Shown: piece after piece, positions 1 through 35,766 of the stretch
How positions within the stretch are numbered: position 1 is the stretch's first letter
Layout of the letters: each line of letters begins with the position of its first letter
Source of the DNA: a virus
Length of the DNA: 35,766 nucleotides
IMG/VR virus record: IMGVR_UViG_3300045988_100376
Reading direction: 5' to 3' (one strand)
Translations under genes and position numbers: made by a program
Notes under the pieces: model-generated
The model's input: the letters and a program-made list of their open reading frames with translations, nothing else
The model's database searches: none
What the model was told of the DNA's origin: nothing

Positions 1-85
1 CTAATGCTTTGCACAGCTTTTGTTTCAGCAGTATTAGCAATAAAAATAGTAGCCGCCCATTTGTATAAAACAATAGACAGCTACC
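1..85. repeat. Terminal direct repeat, identical to 35682-35766; marks circular closure or terminal redundancy
   Basis: I compared both ends base by base: ctaatgctttgcacag...caatagacagctacc occurs at both ends. Confidence 0.95.
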
Positions 86-3273: not shown

Positions 3274-3939
3274 ATGATTGATTTAGAGATAATAAGCACA
3301 GGCTCTAATGGCAACGCAGTCTTTCTTGACGGTCAGGTCTTGATTGACTGCGGAGTGCCGTTCAACAAACTTGTTGAGTGTGAAGTGGTTGACCGAGTTA
3401 AATATGTTTTTTTAACTCATCAACACGGAGACCATTGTAATGTTGCTACTCTAAAGCGACTGCTGTCCGAACACCCTTGTATTCGGATAATTTACCCCAA
3501 TTATCTTTGCAAAAAGCTTTTTTTATTAGGTGATACCTCCTTTCAATACAATTCTTTCATAGTCGCTCAGGATAAATGGTACTCAATCAGCAATATTACT
3601 TTTTCAGCAGTACCACTTCGGCATGATGTTCCTAATATCGGCTGGAAGTTACACTTCAACACTCAACAGGGGATATATAAAGTTATATACGCAACTGATA
3701 CATCGGAAATCGCTCATATAACAGCTAAGAACTACGATTTGTATCTTGTAGAAGCTAACTACTCAAAAACAGAATTACTTAATCGAATAAAAGATAAACG
3801 ATTGAAAGGTCAATATGTGTACGAAGATAGAGTTCTTCGTACACATTTGAGCAAAGAAAAGTGCGATGAATGGTTGTATCAAAATATGGGTAATAACAGT
3901 TTCTTCGTTTATATGCACCAACATGAGGACTTAGTATGA
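3274..3939 (+). CDS. MBL-fold metallo-hydrolase
   Basis: HQHGDH motif after NAVFLDG..LIDCG. I chose the ATG at 3274, just after the recT stop; the track ORF starts at 3175 inside recT. Confidence 0.7.
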   Translation: MIDLEIISTGSNGNAVFLDGQVLIDCGVPFNKLVECEVVDRVKYVFLTHQHGDHCNVATLKRLLSEHPCIRIIYPNYLCKKLFLLGDTSFQYNSFIVAQDKWYSISNITFSAVPLRHDVPNIGWKLHFNTQQGIYKVIYATDTSEIAHITAKNYDLYLVEANYSKTELLNRIKDKRLKGQYVYEDRVLRTHLSKEKCDEWLYQNMGNNSFFVYMHQHEDLV

Positions 3940-30686: not shown

Positions 30687-30806
30687 CGGAAACATTTCTG
30701 CAACAATATGCAAAAATGATTAATTCAATTTTTTCATTTAGTGTGAAAAGTTTTTTCGATTTGTGCGAAAAGCGACAGATGGTGCGGTATCTTTTGGTTA
30801 TAGATT

Positions 30807-30990
30807 TGTTAGCTACTTGTTAGCTGTGTGTTAGCTACGATATGTATTTTTCCGTGTTTTAGGGTGATTTAAGTATAGCAAAACCCCAGTAAACATCGTA
30901 TTTACCGGGGTAAAAAGCTTTTGGTGCAGGTAACTTGCAGGGGGGATAGGAATGGGGGAAATGGGGGATTTTGTTAGCTATATGTAAGCT
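30807..30990. repeat. attP region: TGT(T/A)AGCT arm-type repeats in 11-bp phase (3 + 2 copies) flanking a ~135-bp centre
   Basis: Copies at 30807, 30818, 30829 and at 30972, 30983. The centre holds ccccagtaaa/tttaccgggg and a G-rich atggggga repeat. Confidence 0.6.
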
Positions 30991-31028
30991 ACGGAGCATA
31001 ATTATGAACAATTCAAGATAATATAAGA

Positions 31029-32066
31029 CTATATTTTGTTGATTGCATTCACCAATTCTTTGGGGTTAATGTGGGTGTAAACCTTTTCGGTCAAGTCCAT
31101 TTTCGACTTGTGACCGACTATTTTTTTGATGATTGTGTGGTTCACATTTGCCGATACAAGCATTGAAATGCAGGTGTGTCTTGTTTCGTGTATGGTGTGG
31201 TCTAAACCTAAATCGTTTTGCAGAGGTGTCCAGTAGTTGCGTTTAAAGTTATCGTATTTCAGCGGCTTGCCATTGGTGTTATTCAGAACATATCCACATT
31301 GAGAATCGCTGATGAATTTCTGCCAAAACGGCAATACTTTGTCTGCTATAGGCACGGTTCGTACACCTGAATCGGTTTTTGAACTTTCAACAAAGAAAGT
31401 CTGTTCGTCAAGGTTTACATTTGAAGTTTTCAGATTGAGAAGTTCAGACACACGCACTCCCGAATAAATCAGCATAAGCACTATTTTTACCGAATCAAGA
31501 TTTGAATATTCCCACAAAAGATTTATTTCGCTTTCCGAAAACTCCCTGCGTGCTCGTTTTGTTTCATCTGACTTGGCATTGATTTTCAATTCTTCTGCAA
31601 GATTGTTATGGAGTATATCGTGAAATATGCAGTATTCGTAGATTTTGTTCAACAGAATTTTAATTCGCCTAACCGATTGATAACCGTTGTTGCAGTTGTC
31701 GAGAACTCGTTGCATATCAATGATTTTTATATCGGACATCTTGCGATTGTATAACATTGAGCATTGTTTGTATGCCGCATTATACTGTCTTTTGGTGTTC
31801 GGATTTGTGTCTTCGGTGATGAACTCCATGTACCAAAGTTCATAAATTTCTGAAAAAGTGCGTCTTGCCGAATCAACATCAAACGGGTTTTGATTGTAAT
31901 CAGCAAGAGCGTTCAGAGCTTTCGGCTTGTTGGGAAAGTAGCCTATAACTCTGCGTTCCTGATTGCGTGTTTCTTTGTTGTATCCTATTGTCACGCAGGC
32001 AACCCACGGATTGCGCCTGTTTCCGCTCAGCTTATAAACAGAGCCGTAGCCGTTAGGCAGTTTCAT
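31029..32066 (-). CDS. int: Tyrosine integrase
   Basis: HETRHTCISML, VGHKS and a C-terminal Y in EKVYTH. ATG at 32066 is 8 nt after aaaggag. Confidence 0.9.
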   Translation of the reverse strand: MKLPNGYGSVYKLSGNRRNPWVACVTIGYNKETRNQERRVIGYFPNKPKALNALADYNQNPFDVDSARRTFSEIYELWYMEFITEDTNPNTKRQYNAAYKQCSMLYNRKMSDIKIIDMQRVLDNCNNGYQSVRRIKILLNKIYEYCIFHDILHNNLAEELKINAKSDETKRARREFSESEINLLWEYSNLDSVKIVLMLIYSGVRVSELLNLKTSNVNLDEQTFFVESSKTDSGVRTVPIADKVLPFWQKFISDSQCGYVLNNTNGKPLKYDNFKRNYWTPLQNDLGLDHTIHETRHTCISMLVSANVNHTIIKKIVGHKSKMDLTEKVYTHINPKELVNAINKI

Positions 32067-32086
32067 TTTATACACTCCTTTTGCTT

Positions 32087-32146
32087 AAAAAAGGGTGCAA
32101 AAATCCCTTGTGTTATTTATCTGCAAAACTTGCAAAACACAAGGGA
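32087..32146 (-). terminator. Intrinsic terminator on the - strand between the NYN gene and int
   Basis: 11-bp perfect inverted repeat tcccttgtgtt/aacacaaggga (32104-32114 and 32136-32146). In - sense it is followed by UUUUUGCACCCUUUUUU. Confidence 0.6.
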
Positions 32147-32158
32147 GTATGGTACAAT
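32130..32158 (+). promoter_or_regulatory. Promoter TTGCAA-17-TACAAT with an extended -10 TG
   Basis: ttgcaa 32130-32135, tggtacaat ending at 32158. Confidence 0.55.
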
Positions 32159-32164
32159 TATATT

Positions 32165-32246
32165 GCTGTTTAAGTACCGTTGCACCCTATGTGTAATGGT
32201 TTCCGCTCTATCCTGTTGGCGCAGGGTAGGGCGGATTTTTTATTTT
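32165..32246 (+). ncRNA. Candidate ~80-nt small RNA, convergent with and overlapping the 3' end of the NYN transcript
   Basis: Bounded by the promoter at 32130-32158 and a 13-bp GC-rich hairpin (32203-32234, two G-U pairs) plus atttttta tttt. No RBS-led ORF inside. Confidence 0.45.
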
Positions 32247-32959
32247 ACTAAATTTTTAGCGTATAGCTTATCTTTCTTTAGTTCTTCTGAATCGGGGCGA
32301 CTTACTTTAGTTTCAAGTCCGTCAATATGTTCAAAGAGACTTGGTTTAATCGTGTGCCACATAGGGTCTAAAATAAAATCAATGCCCTCTCTGCGGGCGT
32401 GCTTAGCAGCAGGAACGAAGTCGCTGTCACCGGCAATTAATATAATACGATCAACTTGCTTTTTGTAAGATAAAGATGCAATATCCAAGCCTATTTTCAT
32501 ATCGACACCTTTCTGTTGTATATCAAGTTTGAAATGACTTTCTTCAAGGTCTGTAATGGCGAGTTTACCATTGCACAATTTCTTTACATATTCAGGCTTA
32601 ATTGTGTATCCAACGGTACTTTCTAAAAGTTCACCTTTTCTAAAAGCTACTTTTCTTTTAGATTTTAGTTCCTCAAAAAACTCCATAGACCATTTATACT
32701 GATCAGTTTTAGATAAATCAATTTGTTCTTTAGTGAGGGGATGATATACTTTCTTAGTTGAAGGAAGACAATCATAGTAGAAAATGCGATAAAGGTATTT
32801 TTCTTCTGAATAACTGTTGCGAGTTTTTTTATTCATGTAATGCCTACTGCAATATTGAACCAATTCTCTTGCCCTATCTTTTGGGTTTTTATCTCCCCAT
32901 AAATAATTTGCTCTTCTTAAATAAAAAGCACCGTCAACAAGGATAGCAATTCTTATCAT
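32240..32959 (-). CDS. NYN (LabA/DUF88-like, PIN-related) domain RNase candidate, 239 aa
   Basis: IAILVDGAF..., QQKGVDMKIGLDIASL and RIILIAGDSDFVPAAKHARREG. ATG at 32959 is 9 nt after aaggag. Confidence 0.7.
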   Translation of the reverse strand: MIRIAILVDGAFYLRRANYLWGDKNPKDRARELVQYCSRHYMNKKTRNSYSEEKYLYRIFYYDCLPSTKKVYHPLTKEQIDLSKTDQYKWSMEFFEELKSKRKVAFRKGELLESTVGYTIKPEYVKKLCNGKLAITDLEESHFKLDIQQKGVDMKIGLDIASLSYKKQVDRIILIAGDSDFVPAAKHARREGIDFILDPMWHTIKPSLFEHIDGLETKVSRPDSEELKKDKLYAKNLVK

Positions 32960-32978
32960 GCGAAAATTCTCCTTTATG

Positions 32979-33035
32979 TAAAAAACTCTTGGGGTCGACA
33001 CATCCCATATGGTGGGAGGTTTACTGCCAAGAGTT
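32979..33035 (-). promoter_or_regulatory. Leader hairpin plus U-tract (attenuator/terminator-like) directly upstream of the NYN RBS
   Basis: - sense: aactcttgg(33035-33027)...inner tccca/tggga stem...ccaagagtt(32992-32984), then uuuu, then acataaaggag. Confidence 0.5.
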
Positions 33036-33060
33036 CACACTAACAATAAAATTAAAATTT

Positions 33061-33079
33061 AATGTAGTAATACTACATT
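33061..33079. promoter_or_regulatory. Perfect 9-1-9 palindrome AATGTAGTA-A-TACTACATT at the predicted NYN transcription start (operator candidate)
   Basis: Read directly from the sequence. Lies just downstream of the - strand -10 element. Confidence 0.55.
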
Positions 33080-33082
33080 TTT

Positions 33083-33111
33083 ATTATATGCAAATTCAAG
33101 ACATTATTCAA
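33083..33111 (-). promoter_or_regulatory. Promoter TTGAAT-17-TATAAT for the NYN gene
   Basis: Reverse complement of attcaa (33106-33111) and of attata (33083-33088), with a 17-nt spacer. Confidence 0.55.
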
Positions 33112-33286: not shown

Positions 33287-33315
33287 TTGAACAATCAGAA
33301 CAAATGTTCTATAAT
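33287..33315 (+). promoter_or_regulatory. Promoter TTGAAC-17-TATAAT with a LexA (Cheo) box AGAACAAATGTTCT in the spacer
   Basis: ttgaac 33287-33292, tataat 33310-33315. GAAC-N4-GTTC at 33298-33309. Confidence 0.65.
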
Positions 33316-33356
33316 GAATGTGTAAAGAAAAATAAAAAGCTTTGGGGTGATTCTAT

Positions 33357-33464
33357 ATGGATTATAAAAAATACATAATCGAATTGATAAATAAAATCGA
33401 AGATGAAAAAACATTGAAAAAAATCTATGCAATAATAAATCGAATTTTTGTGAGAGGTGGGTGA
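33357..33464 (+). CDS. 35-aa ORF MDYKKYIIELINKIEDEKTLKKIYAIINRIFVRGG (candidate SOS-induced antirepressor)
   Basis: ggggtga lies 7 nt upstream of the ATG. Sits downstream of the LexA-box promoter and ends in a terminator stem. Below the ORF-track cutoff. Confidence 0.45.
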   Translation: MDYKKYIIELINKIEDEKTLKKIYAIINRIFVRGG

Positions 33465-33482
33465 CCACCTCTTTTATTTTTC
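33453..33482. terminator. Hairpin agaggtgg/ccacctct with a T-run on the + side, shared by convergent genes
   Basis: Read directly from the sequence. The repressor stop codon lies in the T-run. Confidence 0.7.
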
Positions 33483-33836
33483 TTTCTCAAAGATTTCTTT
33501 CAAGAAGTTTTTGAATATCATCTTATCTTCGTGACTTAATTTCAAATATGTTTCAATAATTTGTTTGTCGAGGTCATCAAGGTTAAATTCTTCTGACAAT
33601 TCATCAAGTATGTAATCCTCATCATCTTCAAACATTTCGCCCTCGCCCTCGGTAAGCCACATAAAGTTTACCCTGTACTCTTTGCAAACCTGTTTGATAA
33701 ATAATTCTTTGGGTTCAACAAGTTCATTTTCAATGTTTTTAATGACACTTCTCGAAACTCCGACACGCTCTCCAAACTCTGTTTGTGAGAGTTTTTTTAT
33801 TTTTCGCAGAGTTTTAAAACGCTCGCTTATGCTCAT
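33474..33836 (-). CDS. CI-like XRE-family repressor without a peptidase S24 domain (120 aa)
   Basis: LRKIKKLSQTEFGERVGVSRSVIKNIENE is the HTH. The C-terminus is acidic and helical. ATG at 33836 is 8 nt after gaggtga. Divergent from the early promoter. Confidence 0.8.
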   Translation of the reverse strand: MSISERFKTLRKIKKLSQTEFGERVGVSRSVIKNIENELVEPKELFIKQVCKEYRVNFMWLTEGEGEMFEDDEDYILDELSEEFNLDDLDKQIIETYLKLSHEDKMIFKNFLKEIFEKEK

Positions 33837-33877
33837 TTTATGTATCACCTCGCTGTAGAATTTTATCTGATGTATTC

Positions 33878-33906
33878 ATTATATACGGTATCCAATGGCT
33901 TGTCAA
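33878..33906 (-). promoter_or_regulatory. Consensus promoter TTGACA-17-TATAAT for the repressor gene
   Basis: Reverse complement of tgtcaa (33901-33906) and of attata (33878-33883). Confidence 0.65.
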
Positions 33907-33950
33907 GCCCAAAAAACAAAATATTTTTATTAAAACAGGGTTGACAAGCC
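33897..33950. promoter_or_regulatory. Two operator copies: GGCTTG-T-CAAGCC (33897-33909) and GGTTGACAAGCC (33939-33950)
   Basis: One copy overlaps each -35 element of the divergent promoters. Confidence 0.6.
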
Positions 33951-33969
33951 GTATTTTGAGGTATATAAT
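33941..33969 (+). promoter_or_regulatory. Consensus early promoter TTGACA-17-TATAAT
   Basis: ttgaca 33941-33946, tataat 33964-33969. Confidence 0.7.
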
Positions 33970-35654: not shown

Positions 35655-35766
35655 ATGGAAGTAATAATAATTTTAGGACTACTAATGCTTTGCACAGCTT
35701 TTGTTTCAGCAGTATTAGCAATAAAAATAGTAGCCGCCCATTTGTATAAAACAATAGACAGCTACC
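35655..35766 (+). CDS. 5' part of the 57-aa small membrane protein that continues across the junction (equivalent to 1-147)
   Basis: gaggtga RBS, ATG at 35655. The frame is continuous with frame 1 at the window start. Confidence 0.5.
   Translation, partial: MEVIIILGLLMLCTAFVSAVLAIKIVAAHLYKTIDSY
35682..35766. repeat. Terminal direct repeat, identical to 1-85
   Basis: Direct comparison of both ends. Confidence 0.95.

What the first reader, a model, noticed from the sequence alone, without database searches (positions are those of the whole stretch)
32130..32246. Promoter-to-terminator unit predicting an ~80-nt antisense sRNA over the 3' end of the NYN mRNA
On the + strand, TTGCAA-17-TGgTACAAT is followed about 45 nt later by a 13-bp GC-rich hairpin and a T-run (32203-32246). 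That T-run overlaps the NYN stop codon. In the opposite sense the same hairpin has two C-A mismatches and no U-run, so it is a one-way + strand terminator with no + strand gene to terminate. The NYN mRNA must run through this region to reach its own terminator (32146-32087). The two RNAs would therefore be fully complementary over about 80 nt. Convergent overlap at the 3' ends is how Bacillus prophage type I toxin-antitoxin pairs work (txpA/RatA, bsrG/SR4). Here the controlled gene would be an RNase rather than a small membrane peptide. The promoter also lies inside the stem-loop of the - strand terminator, which suggests the two transcription directions interfere with each other.
Basis: seen in the sequence. 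Interest (0 to 1): 0.65.

Follow-up and report, generated by a model that had tools for sequence, protein, structure and literature searches.

The report
Antisense RNA switch guarding phage integrase
The predicted ~80-nt antisense RNA looks real and is conserved in many gut Clostridia phages, but it travels with the integrase gene rather than the NYN gene, and it most likely makes transcription stop just before the integrase, much as some plasmids control their replication genes.

Summary
On the + strand, TTGCAA-17-TGgTACAAT (32130-32158) is followed by two hairpins and a T-run that overlaps the NYN stop codon. This predicts a 77-82 nt RNA.

The exact terminator hairpin occurs in 65 viral contigs and 23 genome contigs. 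All 35 distinct units next to a recombinase keep a sigma-70 promoter 37-59 nt upstream of the hairpin. The gene on the left is always a recombinase: many tyrosine integrase families, or a serine recombinase. The gene on the right varies (cI-like repressors, TIR, NTase and others) and is NYN in only about 15 loci. NYN homologues with no integrase nearby lack the unit.

On the - strand, an intrinsic terminator (T1, 32104-32146) sits just before the integrase ribosome-binding site. Its 5' arm is complementary to a leader segment that lies inside the region covered by the antisense RNA, and this pairing covaries across lineages. It therefore looks like an antiterminator.

Best model: countertranscript-driven attenuation of int, as in pT181/pIP501. 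No expression data exist.

The hairpin is not attP. In an integrated copy the host junction lies at about 30917.

No Rfam family matches. Nearest precedent: uncharacterised sRNAs next to int in S. pyogenes prophages.

The parts
32130..32135 (+). -35 hexamer TTGCAA of the antisense-RNA promoter. It lies in the apical loop of the - strand terminator T1.
   Evidence: A TTGnnn hexamer is kept at this position in all 35 distinct units.
32150..32158 (+). Extended -10 element TGgTACAAT. Its complement forms the 3' strand of leader helix Pc.
32165..32246 (+). Predicted antisense sRNA (countertranscript), about 77-82 nt. The start site is inferred, not mapped.
   Evidence: Predicted length is 67-91 nt in the 35 units extracted (31 distinct RNA sequences).
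32176..32200 (+). sRNA hairpin H1 (10 bp, two G-U pairs). Its loop and 3' arm carry CCCUAUGUGU, which mimics the 5' arm of T1.
   Evidence: The 5' part that contains H1 is more stable on the + strand in 27 of 31 distinct sequences, and compensatory changes are seen.
32202..32235 (+). sRNA hairpin H2, the stem of the intrinsic terminator (15 bp, with conserved U-G wobbles).
32236..32246 (+). T-run of the + strand terminator. It overlaps the NYN stop codon (32240-32242).
32104..32146 (-). T1, the - strand intrinsic terminator (attenuator) in the integrase leader. Stem 32136-32146 / 32104-32114.
   Evidence: An equivalent hairpin plus U-run was found in 32 of 37 distinct leaders.
32098..32103 (-). 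U-tract of T1 (UUUUUG on the - strand).
32185..32194 (-). 5' strand of the antiterminator (ACACAUAGGG). It pairs with the T1 5' arm at 32137-32145 and is covered by the sRNA.
   Evidence: cognate duplexes versus non-cognate. (this pairing is the minimum-energy fold of the nascent leader).
32151..32178 (-). Leader helix Pc (32174-32178 pairs with 32151-32155). It caps the antiterminator stem.
32092..32100 (-). 3' strand of the long-range leader helix P0. It pairs with 32180-32188 and is followed by a second U-run (32086-32091). Its role is unclear.
   Evidence: Covariation GGGUGCA/UGCACCC to GGCGCA/UGCGCC.
31029..32066 (-). Tyrosine integrase gene, the proposed target. ATG at 32066, ribosome-binding site GGAG at 32075-32078.
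32240..32959 (-). NYN-domain gene (239 aa from ATG 32959). It is the upstream cistron in this phage only and is an exchangeable accessory gene.

Best explanation
The 164-nt spacer between NYN and int is a portable control cassette for the recombinase gene.

Int has no promoter of its own. It is reached by - strand transcription coming from the upstream lysogeny genes (here NYN, from the promoter-like site at 33111-33083). That transcript has to pass an intrinsic terminator, T1, which lies about 20 nt before the int ribosome-binding site.

While the leader is being made, a segment of it (ACACAUAGGG, 32185-32194), helped by the small helix Pc, can pair with the 5' arm of T1. That is an antiterminator and lets RNA polymerase read through into int.

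A constitutive-looking + strand promoter sits inside T1 and makes an RNA of about 80 nt with two hairpins. This RNA is fully complementary to the antiterminator segment. When it binds the nascent leader, the antiterminator cannot form, T1 folds, and transcription stops before int.

This is the logic of the countertranscripts that control the rep genes of pT181, pIP501 and pAMbeta1. The likely pay-off is a burst of integrase when the phage genome first enters a cell with no antisense RNA present, followed by shut-off in the established lysogen.

Shown by comparison of sequences: the promoter, the two hairpins, T1, the covarying antiterminator complementarity, and the linkage to recombinases. 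Inferred only: that the RNA is made, that the two RNAs pair, the direction of the effect, and the biological role.
For: - Spread: the exact H2 32-mer occurs in 65 IMG/VR contigs, and a 26-mer core of it in 23 genome contigs of Ruminococcaceae/Oscillospiraceae-type MAGs.
- Divergence: the roughly 90 nt upstream fall into many unrelated sequence groups. Even so, all 35 distinct units keep a sigma-70 promoter at a fixed distance and a + strand hairpin H1 next to H2. RNAalifold recovers both hairpins, with 6 compensated pairs.
- Strand bias: the 5' part of the RNA folds at -11.8 kcal/mol on the + strand against -6.1 on the - strand, and is more stable on the + strand in 27 of 31.
- Left neighbour: always a - strand recombinase, from more than 10 clusters below 50% identity, including large serine recombinases.
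- Right neighbour: more than 20 unrelated clusters.
- Attenuator: T1 was found in 32 of 37 distinct leaders.
- Antiterminator: the T1 5' arm pairs with its own leader at a mean of -11.1 kcal/mol, against -6.2 for leaders of unrelated lineages. The cognate leader is the best partner in 25 of 32.
- Folding order in the window: the nascent leader truncated before the T1 3' arm folds into antiterminator plus Pc. The longer RNA folds into T1.
- Leader helices Pc and P0: 95% of cells paired, 4 pairs with changes on both sides, slid controls 36-56%.
- No own promoter: no - strand promoter-like site lies between H2 and int.
- Precedent: 89-nt and similar sRNAs next to prophage int genes were seen on northern blots in S. 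pyogenes, and RNase III cuts sense/antisense pairs upstream of int1 and int3 (PMC4829319 and PMC5389636).
Against: - There are no transcript data for this phage or its uncultured host. The start site is a guess from the -10 element.
- Antiterminator complementarity is weak in some lineages. L040 and L101 give -5.1 kcal/mol, no better than non-cognate pairs, and L128 looks weak by eye.
- Five leaders gave no T1 with my finder. In L015 the - strand hairpin has no U-run.
- The covariation tests use related sequences, and partly a structure derived from one of them.
- The conserved helix P0 with its second U-run is not explained by the model.
- The exact identity of H2 across otherwise unrelated cassettes is also unexplained. 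It was partly selected for by how I searched.
Confidence: 0.6

Rival explanations
1. The sRNA is an antitoxin-like antisense RNA whose purpose is to control the NYN RNase mRNA through 3' overlap, as in the type I pairs txpA/RatA and bsrG/SR4.
For: The sRNA is complementary to the 3' untranslated part of the NYN transcript, and its T-run overlaps the NYN stop codon. A perfect duplex of about 77 bp could be an RNase III substrate; this is an inference. NYN is listed as a defence-type nuclease family.
Against: NYN is the upstream gene in only about 15 of 88 loci that carry the exact hairpin. Elsewhere the upstream gene is a cI-like repressor, a TIR protein, a DUF4041-T5orf172 protein, an NTase, a membrane protein and others. 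NYN homologues not followed by an integrase lack the unit (L025, L026, L031-L037). The overlap with the NYN coding sequence is at most 7 nt. There is no small toxin ORF.
Confidence: 0.08
2. Insulator or transcriptional interference only. The convergent promoter and the two face-to-face terminators simply block read-through between the lysogeny genes and int. The short RNA is a by-product with no base-pairing role.
For: The -35 lies in the T1 loop and the -10 abuts T1, so polymerases on the two strands must compete. H2 also occurs on its own, without a promoter, behind other - strand genes (L111, L121 and the second copy in L124).
Against: This does not explain several conserved features: the fixed spacing of about 45 nt, the stable + strand hairpin H1 with G-U pairs, or the lineage-specific complementarity between the sRNA-covered segment and the T1 5' arm. 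It also leaves int with no route to expression.
Confidence: 0.15
3. The conserved hairpin is a DNA site: the attP core, or another recombination site for the adjacent recombinase. The RNA-like features would then be secondary.
For: The core reads as an imperfect inverted repeat around a 6-bp spacer (CTATCCTG-TTGGCG-CAGGGTAG). Different left and right modules are joined exactly at it. L124 has the arrangement hairpin-NYN-hairpin.
Against: In an integrated copy on a 110-kb contig (L126), repressor, NYN, hairpin and int stay contiguous. Host genes begin after the 3' end of int. Homology to the window ends at 30917, where four TGTTAGCT repeats cluster. The same hairpin sits beside integrases of only 20-25% identity and beside serine recombinases, which would not share a core site.
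Confidence: 0.04
4. The sRNA mainly acts in trans, on host mRNAs or on the int leaders of other phages. The variable 5' part would be the seed and the shared H2 a scaffold or protein-binding hairpin.
For: The layout is a variable 5' region plus an identical 3' hairpin across unrelated cassettes.
Against: The unit is strictly tied in position and orientation to the recombinase leader. Its variable part covaries with the neighbouring T1 arm. No target search was possible.
Confidence: 0.1

Closest known systems
Countertranscript-driven transcription attenuation of plasmid rep genes (pT181 RNAI/II-repC, pIP501 RNAIII-repR, pAMbeta1). From established knowledge.
   Same: A small antisense RNA with two stem-loops is made from a promoter inside the leader of the target gene. 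The leader has an intrinsic terminator just before the ribosome-binding site. A mutually exclusive upstream pairing prevents termination unless the antisense RNA sequesters it.
   Different: The target is a phage recombinase gene at the end of a lysogeny operon, not a replication initiator. There is no sequence relationship. The antisense promoter is embedded in the terminator hairpin itself. There is an extra conserved long-range helix (P0) with a second U-run. Nothing has been tested experimentally.
sRNAs next to integrase genes in Streptococcus pyogenes SF370 prophages (Spy_sRNA779816, Spy_sRNA1774740/1775122), and RNase III cleavage of sense/antisense pairs in the UTRs upstream of int1 and int3 (PMC4829319, PMC5389636)
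   Same: Firmicutes prophages. The RNAs are about 89 nt, have their own predicted promoter and terminator, and lie between int and the next lysogeny gene. Antisense pairing with the int 5' UTR was seen in vivo. I found the same layout in Streptococcus phage Javan85.
   Different: Those RNAs have no assigned mechanism or function. I could not compare sequence or structure with them. No attenuator or antiterminator was described there.
Lambda OOP RNA and lambda sib retroregulation of int (from established knowledge)
   Same: OOP is a 77-nt phage antisense RNA with its own promoter and terminator that overlaps the 3' end of a lysogeny gene. The sib system shows that int expression is controlled through RNA structure and RNase III.
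   Different: OOP acts on cII mRNA stability, not on termination upstream of int. The sib site lies downstream of int and depends on the integration state. Here the control element is upstream of int and stays attached to it in the prophage.
Type I toxin-antitoxin pairs with 3' overlap in Bacillus prophages (txpA/RatA, bsrG/SR4).
   Same: Convergent transcripts that overlap at their 3' ends, in a prophage.
   Different: There is no small membrane toxin. The upstream gene is freely exchangeable. The conserved partner is the downstream recombinase.
P4 CI RNA immunity (RNA-RNA pairing that causes premature termination). From established knowledge.
   Same: A small phage RNA causes transcription termination by pairing with the nascent transcript.
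   Different: P4 CI is processed from the same transcript and acts on repeated seq sites to give immunity. Here the RNA is a separate convergent countertranscript and is specific to the int leader.

Membership tests
Countertranscript-driven attenuation (pT181/pIP501 type) | An antisense RNA promoter lies inside the leader of the regulated gene and is convergent with it | tested here: met
   for the window. for 35 of 35 distinct units.
Countertranscript-driven attenuation (pT181/pIP501 type) | An intrinsic terminator lies in the leader, upstream of the ribosome-binding site of the regulated gene | tested here: met
   T1 at 32104-32146 with its U-tract. Present in 32 of 37 distinct leaders.
Countertranscript-driven attenuation (pT181/pIP501 type) | An alternative antiterminator pairing uses a segment that the antisense RNA covers | tested here: met
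   Cognate duplexes average -11.1 kcal/mol against -6.2 for non-cognate, and the cognate is best in 25 of 32. It is the minimum-energy fold of the truncated leader. Exceptions: L040 and L101.
Countertranscript-driven attenuation (pT181/pIP501 type) | The antisense RNA is made, and it raises termination in the leader | not testable with these tools
   This needs RNA-seq or a northern blot, plus in vitro transcription or reporter assays.
Countertranscript-driven attenuation (pT181/pIP501 type) | The regulated gene is a plasmid replication initiator, and there is sequence homology to the plasmid systems | tested here: not met
   The target is a phage integrase. No Rfam family matches. So it works like these systems but is not a member.
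Type I toxin-antitoxin pair with 3' overlap (txpA/RatA, bsrG/SR4) | A small hydrophobic toxin ORF on the strand opposite the antisense RNA | tested here: not met
   The upstream gene encodes a 239-aa NYN protein. No small ORF preceded by a ribosome-binding site is conserved.
Type I toxin-antitoxin pair with 3' overlap (txpA/RatA, bsrG/SR4) | The antisense RNA and the toxin gene are inherited together | tested here: not met
   The unit tracks recombinases, not NYN.
attP core of the adjacent integrase | The phage/host junction of an integrated copy falls at the site | tested here: not met
   In L126 and L129 the junction is at window 30917, and NYN-hairpin-int stay intact. TGTTAGCT repeats flank 30917.
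Any curated RNA family (Rfam 15) | A covariance-model match at the gathering score | tested here: not met
   No matches in the whole window. Only chance-level matches in 31950-32400, with E of 0.5 or more.
S. pyogenes prophage int-adjacent sRNAs (Spy_sRNA779816 and others) | Sequence or structure homology to those RNAs | not tested
Only position, size and orientation match.

The most novel reading that the evidence does not exclude
The spacer is a self-contained, horizontally exchanged RNA control cassette, bounded by two conserved patches: hairpin H2 on one side and the GGGTGCAAAAATCCC / U-run motif on the other. Phages of one host community swap it together with, or independently of, integrase and accessory-gene modules. 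Many otherwise unrelated cassettes carry an identical H2 with a GC-rich loop. A resident prophage's countertranscript could therefore also dock on the int leader of an incoming relative and shut off its integrase. That would be a form of RNA-based integration immunity acting between phages.
Probability: 0.15. Interest if true: 0.8.

Novelty: new variant of a known kind. Interest (0 to 1): 0.62.

Why it matters
How temperate phages outside the lambda paradigm time integrase synthesis is largely unknown, especially for the abundant uncultured phages of gut Clostridia. If this model holds, it has several consequences.

- A plasmid-style antisense attenuator would be a common, modular way to give a pulse of integrase on entry and silence in the lysogen.
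- It would work regardless of the type of recombinase.
- It would define a new RNA family for annotation.
- It would give a function to the unexplained sRNAs seen next to int genes in streptococcal prophages.
- It would mark the exact seams at which defence and accessory genes such as NYN or TIR are slotted between the repressor and the integrase.

Tried and rejected
- Rfam: the gathering search of the whole window and the E-value search of 31950-32400 gave nothing meaningful.
- tRNA/tmRNA scan: none found, so the hairpin is not a tRNA-derived att fragment.
- BLAST of 31000-33100 against GenBank phages: only weak hits inside the NYN gene and none over the spacer.
- attP core hypothesis for the hairpin: rejected using the integrated copy L126.
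- Leader-peptide (translation-coupled) attenuation: no conserved ORF preceded by a ribosome-binding site in the leaders.
- Small toxin ORF: none.
- Formal pair counting of T1 and the antiterminator on the MAFFT alignment: not attempted, because the T1 arms are misaligned between lineages. I used a cognate versus non-cognate duplex test instead.
- Literature searches for antisense or countertranscript control of phage integrase: no described mechanism found, only the S. pyogenes transcript observations. One search failed on syntax.
- I did not build a covariance model or scan the metagenome collection, so the prevalence of variant hairpins is not measured.

Full report
**1.

The window carries two - strand genes here: a NYN-domain gene (32240-32959) and a tyrosine integrase (31029-32066). 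They are separated by 173 nt from the NYN stop codon to the int ATG (164 nt between the listed ORFs).

- On the + strand the scan finds TTGCAA-17-TACAAT with a TG extension at 32130-32158.
- It also finds the best terminator-like site of the whole 30-35.8 kb region at 32202-32235: 15 pairs, a 4-nt loop and the tail TTTTTTATTT.
- The T-run contains the NYN stop codon (32240-32242).
- The 82-nt RNA from about 32165 folds into two adjacent hairpins, H1 (32176-32200) and H2 (32202-32235), at -38.9 kcal/mol, z = -6.8.
- Both hairpins use G-U pairs. The reverse complement of the 77-nt predicted RNA is therefore much weaker (-21.4 kcal/mol), and nothing resembling a U-run follows it on the - strand.
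Its stem is 32136-32146/32104-32114, its U-tract is 32098-32103, and the + strand -35 hexamer lies in its loop.

Within this one window a promoter match is not above chance: 28 sites were found against about 22 expected. The case therefore rests on comparison with other loci.

**2. What the window is, and where attP is**

Bases 1-85 repeat exactly at 35682-35766, so the window is a circularly assembled phage genome of 35,681 bp.

The exact integrase protein is encoded on a 110-kb contig (L126). There the order cI-like HTH, NYN, spacer, int is intact. Ordinary bacterial genes (a sigma factor, HAD hydrolase, Wzy, FUR, rubrerythrin) begin after the 3' end of int. Homology between that contig and the window stops at window position 30917. 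All four copies of TGTTAGCT in the genome lie at 30807-30979, on both sides of that point. So attP is about 110 nt downstream of int, and the hairpin at 32202-32235 is not the attachment site.

**3. The unit is conserved, and it belongs to the recombinase**

The exact 32-nt core of H2 occurs in 65 IMG/VR contigs. A 26-nt core occurs in 23 contigs of species-representative genomes, mostly Ruminococcus, Ruminococcaceae, Oscillospiraceae and Clostridia MAGs.

- The 90 nt to the left fall into many sequence groups with no detectable similarity to one another. The outer base pairs of H2 covary (ccg/cgg, acg/cgt, aac/gtt).
- In every one of the 35 distinct units that sit next to a recombinase there is a TTGnnn-17/18-TAnnnT promoter whose -10 ends 37-59 nt before the hairpin. 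Units without the TG extension have perfect TTGACA and TATAAT hexamers.
- The predicted RNA is 67-91 nt everywhere and always has a hairpin H1 abutting H2.
- RNAalifold on 13 related RNAs, including two with different H2 sequences, returns both hairpins with six compensated pairs. One U-G wobble is kept in all 13.

The gene to the left is always on the - strand and is a recombinase. There are more than ten clusters of tyrosine integrases, some only 20-25% identical to the window's, and large serine recombinases in L122, L014 and L043.

The gene to the right is also on the - strand and ends at the T-run, but it belongs to more than 20 unrelated clusters. These include cI-like HTH and HTH-S24 repressors, a CAP12/Pycsar-type TIR protein, DUF4041-T5orf172, an NTase/HEPN-like protein, zinc-ribbon membrane proteins and NYN.

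NYN homologues of 55-81% identity that precede an integrase mostly have the same architecture with a different H2 sequence: L014, L015, L016, L024 and L027. L021 has only a hairpin and no promoter. NYN homologues with no integrase downstream have only an ordinary sense terminator. The exact conservation of H2 in my main set is therefore partly a result of how I searched. The family is broader.

**4. The - strand reading: an attenuator in the int leader**

No - strand promoter-like site lies between H2 and int, and only about 20 nt separate the T1 U-tract from the int ribosome-binding site. Int must therefore be reached by transcription from upstream, through T1. A comparable hairpin plus U-run precedes the recombinase in 32 of 37 distinct leaders. 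In some the ribosome-binding site or the ATG abuts it.

In each lineage the 5' arm of T1 is complementary to a segment that starts 2-18 nt after the H2 complement. Examples of leader segment / T1 5' arm:

| Locus | Leader segment | T1 5' arm |
|---|---|---|
| Window | ACACAUAGGG | CCCUUGUGU |
| L045 | ACGCAAAGGC | GCCUUUGUGU |
| L123 | CACGGAGGC | GCCUCCGUG |
| L110 | CCGAAGG | CCUUCGG |
| L119 | AGGGCUGC | GCAGCCUC |

- Duplex energies average -11.1 kcal/mol for cognate pairs and -6.2 for leaders of unrelated lineages.
- The cognate leader is the best partner in 25 of 32.
- The clear exceptions are L040 and L101.

In the window, the leader truncated before the T1 3' arm folds into exactly this pairing, capped by a small helix Pc. 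Once the 3' arm is present, T1 is the minimum-energy fold. Helix Pc (32174-32178 with 32151-32155, the complement of the -10 element) and a long-range helix P0 (32180-32188 with 32092-32100) are 95% paired across 16 leaders. Four of their pairs change on both sides, and slid controls give 36-56% pairing. No leader peptide preceded by a ribosome-binding site is conserved.

**5. The mechanism I commit to**

The + strand RNA covers the antiterminator strand, the Pc 5' strand and the P0 5' strand, but not T1. Its H1 loop and 3' arm (CCCUAUGUGU) are a near copy of the T1 5' arm, so the RNA competes with T1 for the same leader segment. Binding should prevent antitermination, so T1 forms and int is not transcribed.

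This is the design of countertranscript-driven attenuation in pT181, pIP501 and pAMbeta1 (established knowledge), here applied to a recombinase at the end of the lysogeny operon. A plausible role is a pulse of integrase on entry into a cell, before the RNA has accumulated, followed by silence in the lysogen.

Expression, pairing, direction of effect and role are all inferred. I put 0.6 on this model.

**6. Rivals**

A secondary effect on the 3' end of the NYN mRNA remains possible.
- A pure insulator or interference role does not explain H1, the fixed spacing or the covarying complementarity.
- The attP reading is refuted (section 2).
- A trans-acting role cannot be excluded.

**7. What stays unexplained**

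- H2 is identical beside cassettes that share nothing else.
- Module joints fall exactly at H2:
  - L061 and L096 keep the window's left flank (in L061 with the window's int; L096 carries a different integrase cluster) and have other right-hand genes.
  - L055 and L083 have the same leader and NYN but a different int cluster.
  - L128 encodes the identical integrase within 11 kb of 99.7% identical DNA, yet carries a divergent T1/H1/H2 patch and a different right-hand gene.
- H2 also occurs alone, without a promoter: in L111, in L121, and as a second copy after NYN in L124.
- The P0 helix with its second U-run has no assigned role.

**8. Comparison with what is known**

No Rfam family matches. 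Literature searches found no described mechanism of this kind for phage integrases.

The nearest observations come from S. pyogenes SF370 prophages.
- A northern-validated 89-nt sRNA lies between int3 and the next gene.
- A pair of sRNAs lies between int4 and the repressor (PMC4829319).
- RNase III cleavage sites occur in sense/antisense pairs in the UTRs upstream of int1 and int3 (PMC5389636).
- The function of all of these is left open in those papers.

Streptococcus phage Javan85 shows the same layout between int and a NYN-like gene: a promoter at 1064-1092 and a G-U-containing terminator abutting the upstream stop codon, with fold z = -5.2.

I therefore rate this a new variant of a known kind. 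The regulatory logic is known, the target and context are new, and the RNA family is undescribed.

Noticed in passing
window 1-85 and 35682-35766: An exact 85-nt terminal direct repeat. The window is a circularly assembled phage genome of 35,681 bp.
   Followed up: yes
window 30800-30990: Probable attP. Homology to the integrated copies (L126, L129) ends at 30917. All four TGTTAGCT copies in the genome lie here: three at 11-bp spacing (30807, 30818, 30829) and one at 30972. They look like arm-type integrase sites. A hairpin lies at 30883-30911.
   Followed up: partly
L124 (cores at 3274 and 4260 in int-leftward orientation); L111; L121: The H2 hairpin also occurs without a promoter. In L124 the NYN-like gene is flanked by two copies (int-promoter-H2-NYN-H2). 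In L111 and L121 it sits behind a DUF5067 membrane-protein gene. It behaves like a repeated cassette boundary.
   Followed up: partly
L128:3455-3600, compared with window 32090-32240: A phage encoding the identical integrase protein (100%), within 11 kb of DNA 99.7% identical to the window, carries a diverged patch exactly over T1, the promoter spacer, H1 and the inner part of H2. It has an HTH-Peptidase_M78 gene in place of NYN. This suggests the control cassette is swapped as a unit.
   Followed up: partly
window 32086-32103 and equivalents in L038, L040, L050, L103, L115, L122 and others: The motif GGG(A/U)AUUUUUGCRCCCUUUUUU (on the - strand) after T1 is conserved across otherwise different leaders. 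It forms the 3' strand of helix P0 and a second U-run. On the + strand its A-tracts lie where an UP element of the sRNA promoter would be.
   Followed up: partly
L131 (Streptococcus phage Javan85, MK448832.1) 1064-1190: The same layout occurs in a Streptococcus prophage. A + strand TTGATT-17-TGaTAAAAT promoter starts 2 nt from the int ATG. About 50 nt downstream of the -10 element is a G-U-containing hairpin and T-run abutting the stop codon of a NYN-like gene.
   Followed up: partly
window 33878-33969: Back-to-back perfect TTGACA-17-TATAAT promoters on opposite strands, next to the cI-like HTH gene (33474-33848, - strand). This is presumably the lysis/lysogeny switch.
   Followed up: no
window 33287-33473: A small + strand unit that converges on the repressor gene. 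It has a TTGAAC-17-TATAAT promoter (33287-33315), a 35-aa ORF (33357-33464) and a + strand terminator (33452-33473) abutting the repressor stop codon. This is a second convergent arrangement in the lysogeny region.
   Followed up: no
window 32985-33035: The NYN 5' untranslated region, downstream of the promoter-like site at 33111-33083, contains a long inverted repeat (AACTCTTGG...CCAAGAGTT) just before the ribosome-binding site.
   Followed up: no
L103-L125 record titles: The exact hairpin occurs in two separate contigs of the same MAG in three cases (UMGS263, MGBC139800, HAN027). In HAN027 both copies are at contig ends. The repeat apparently breaks assemblies, and several such elements can share one host genome. 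A few hits are in bins labelled Bifidobacteriaceae, Bacteroides or Gastranaerophilales, which are probably mis-binned.
   Followed up: no
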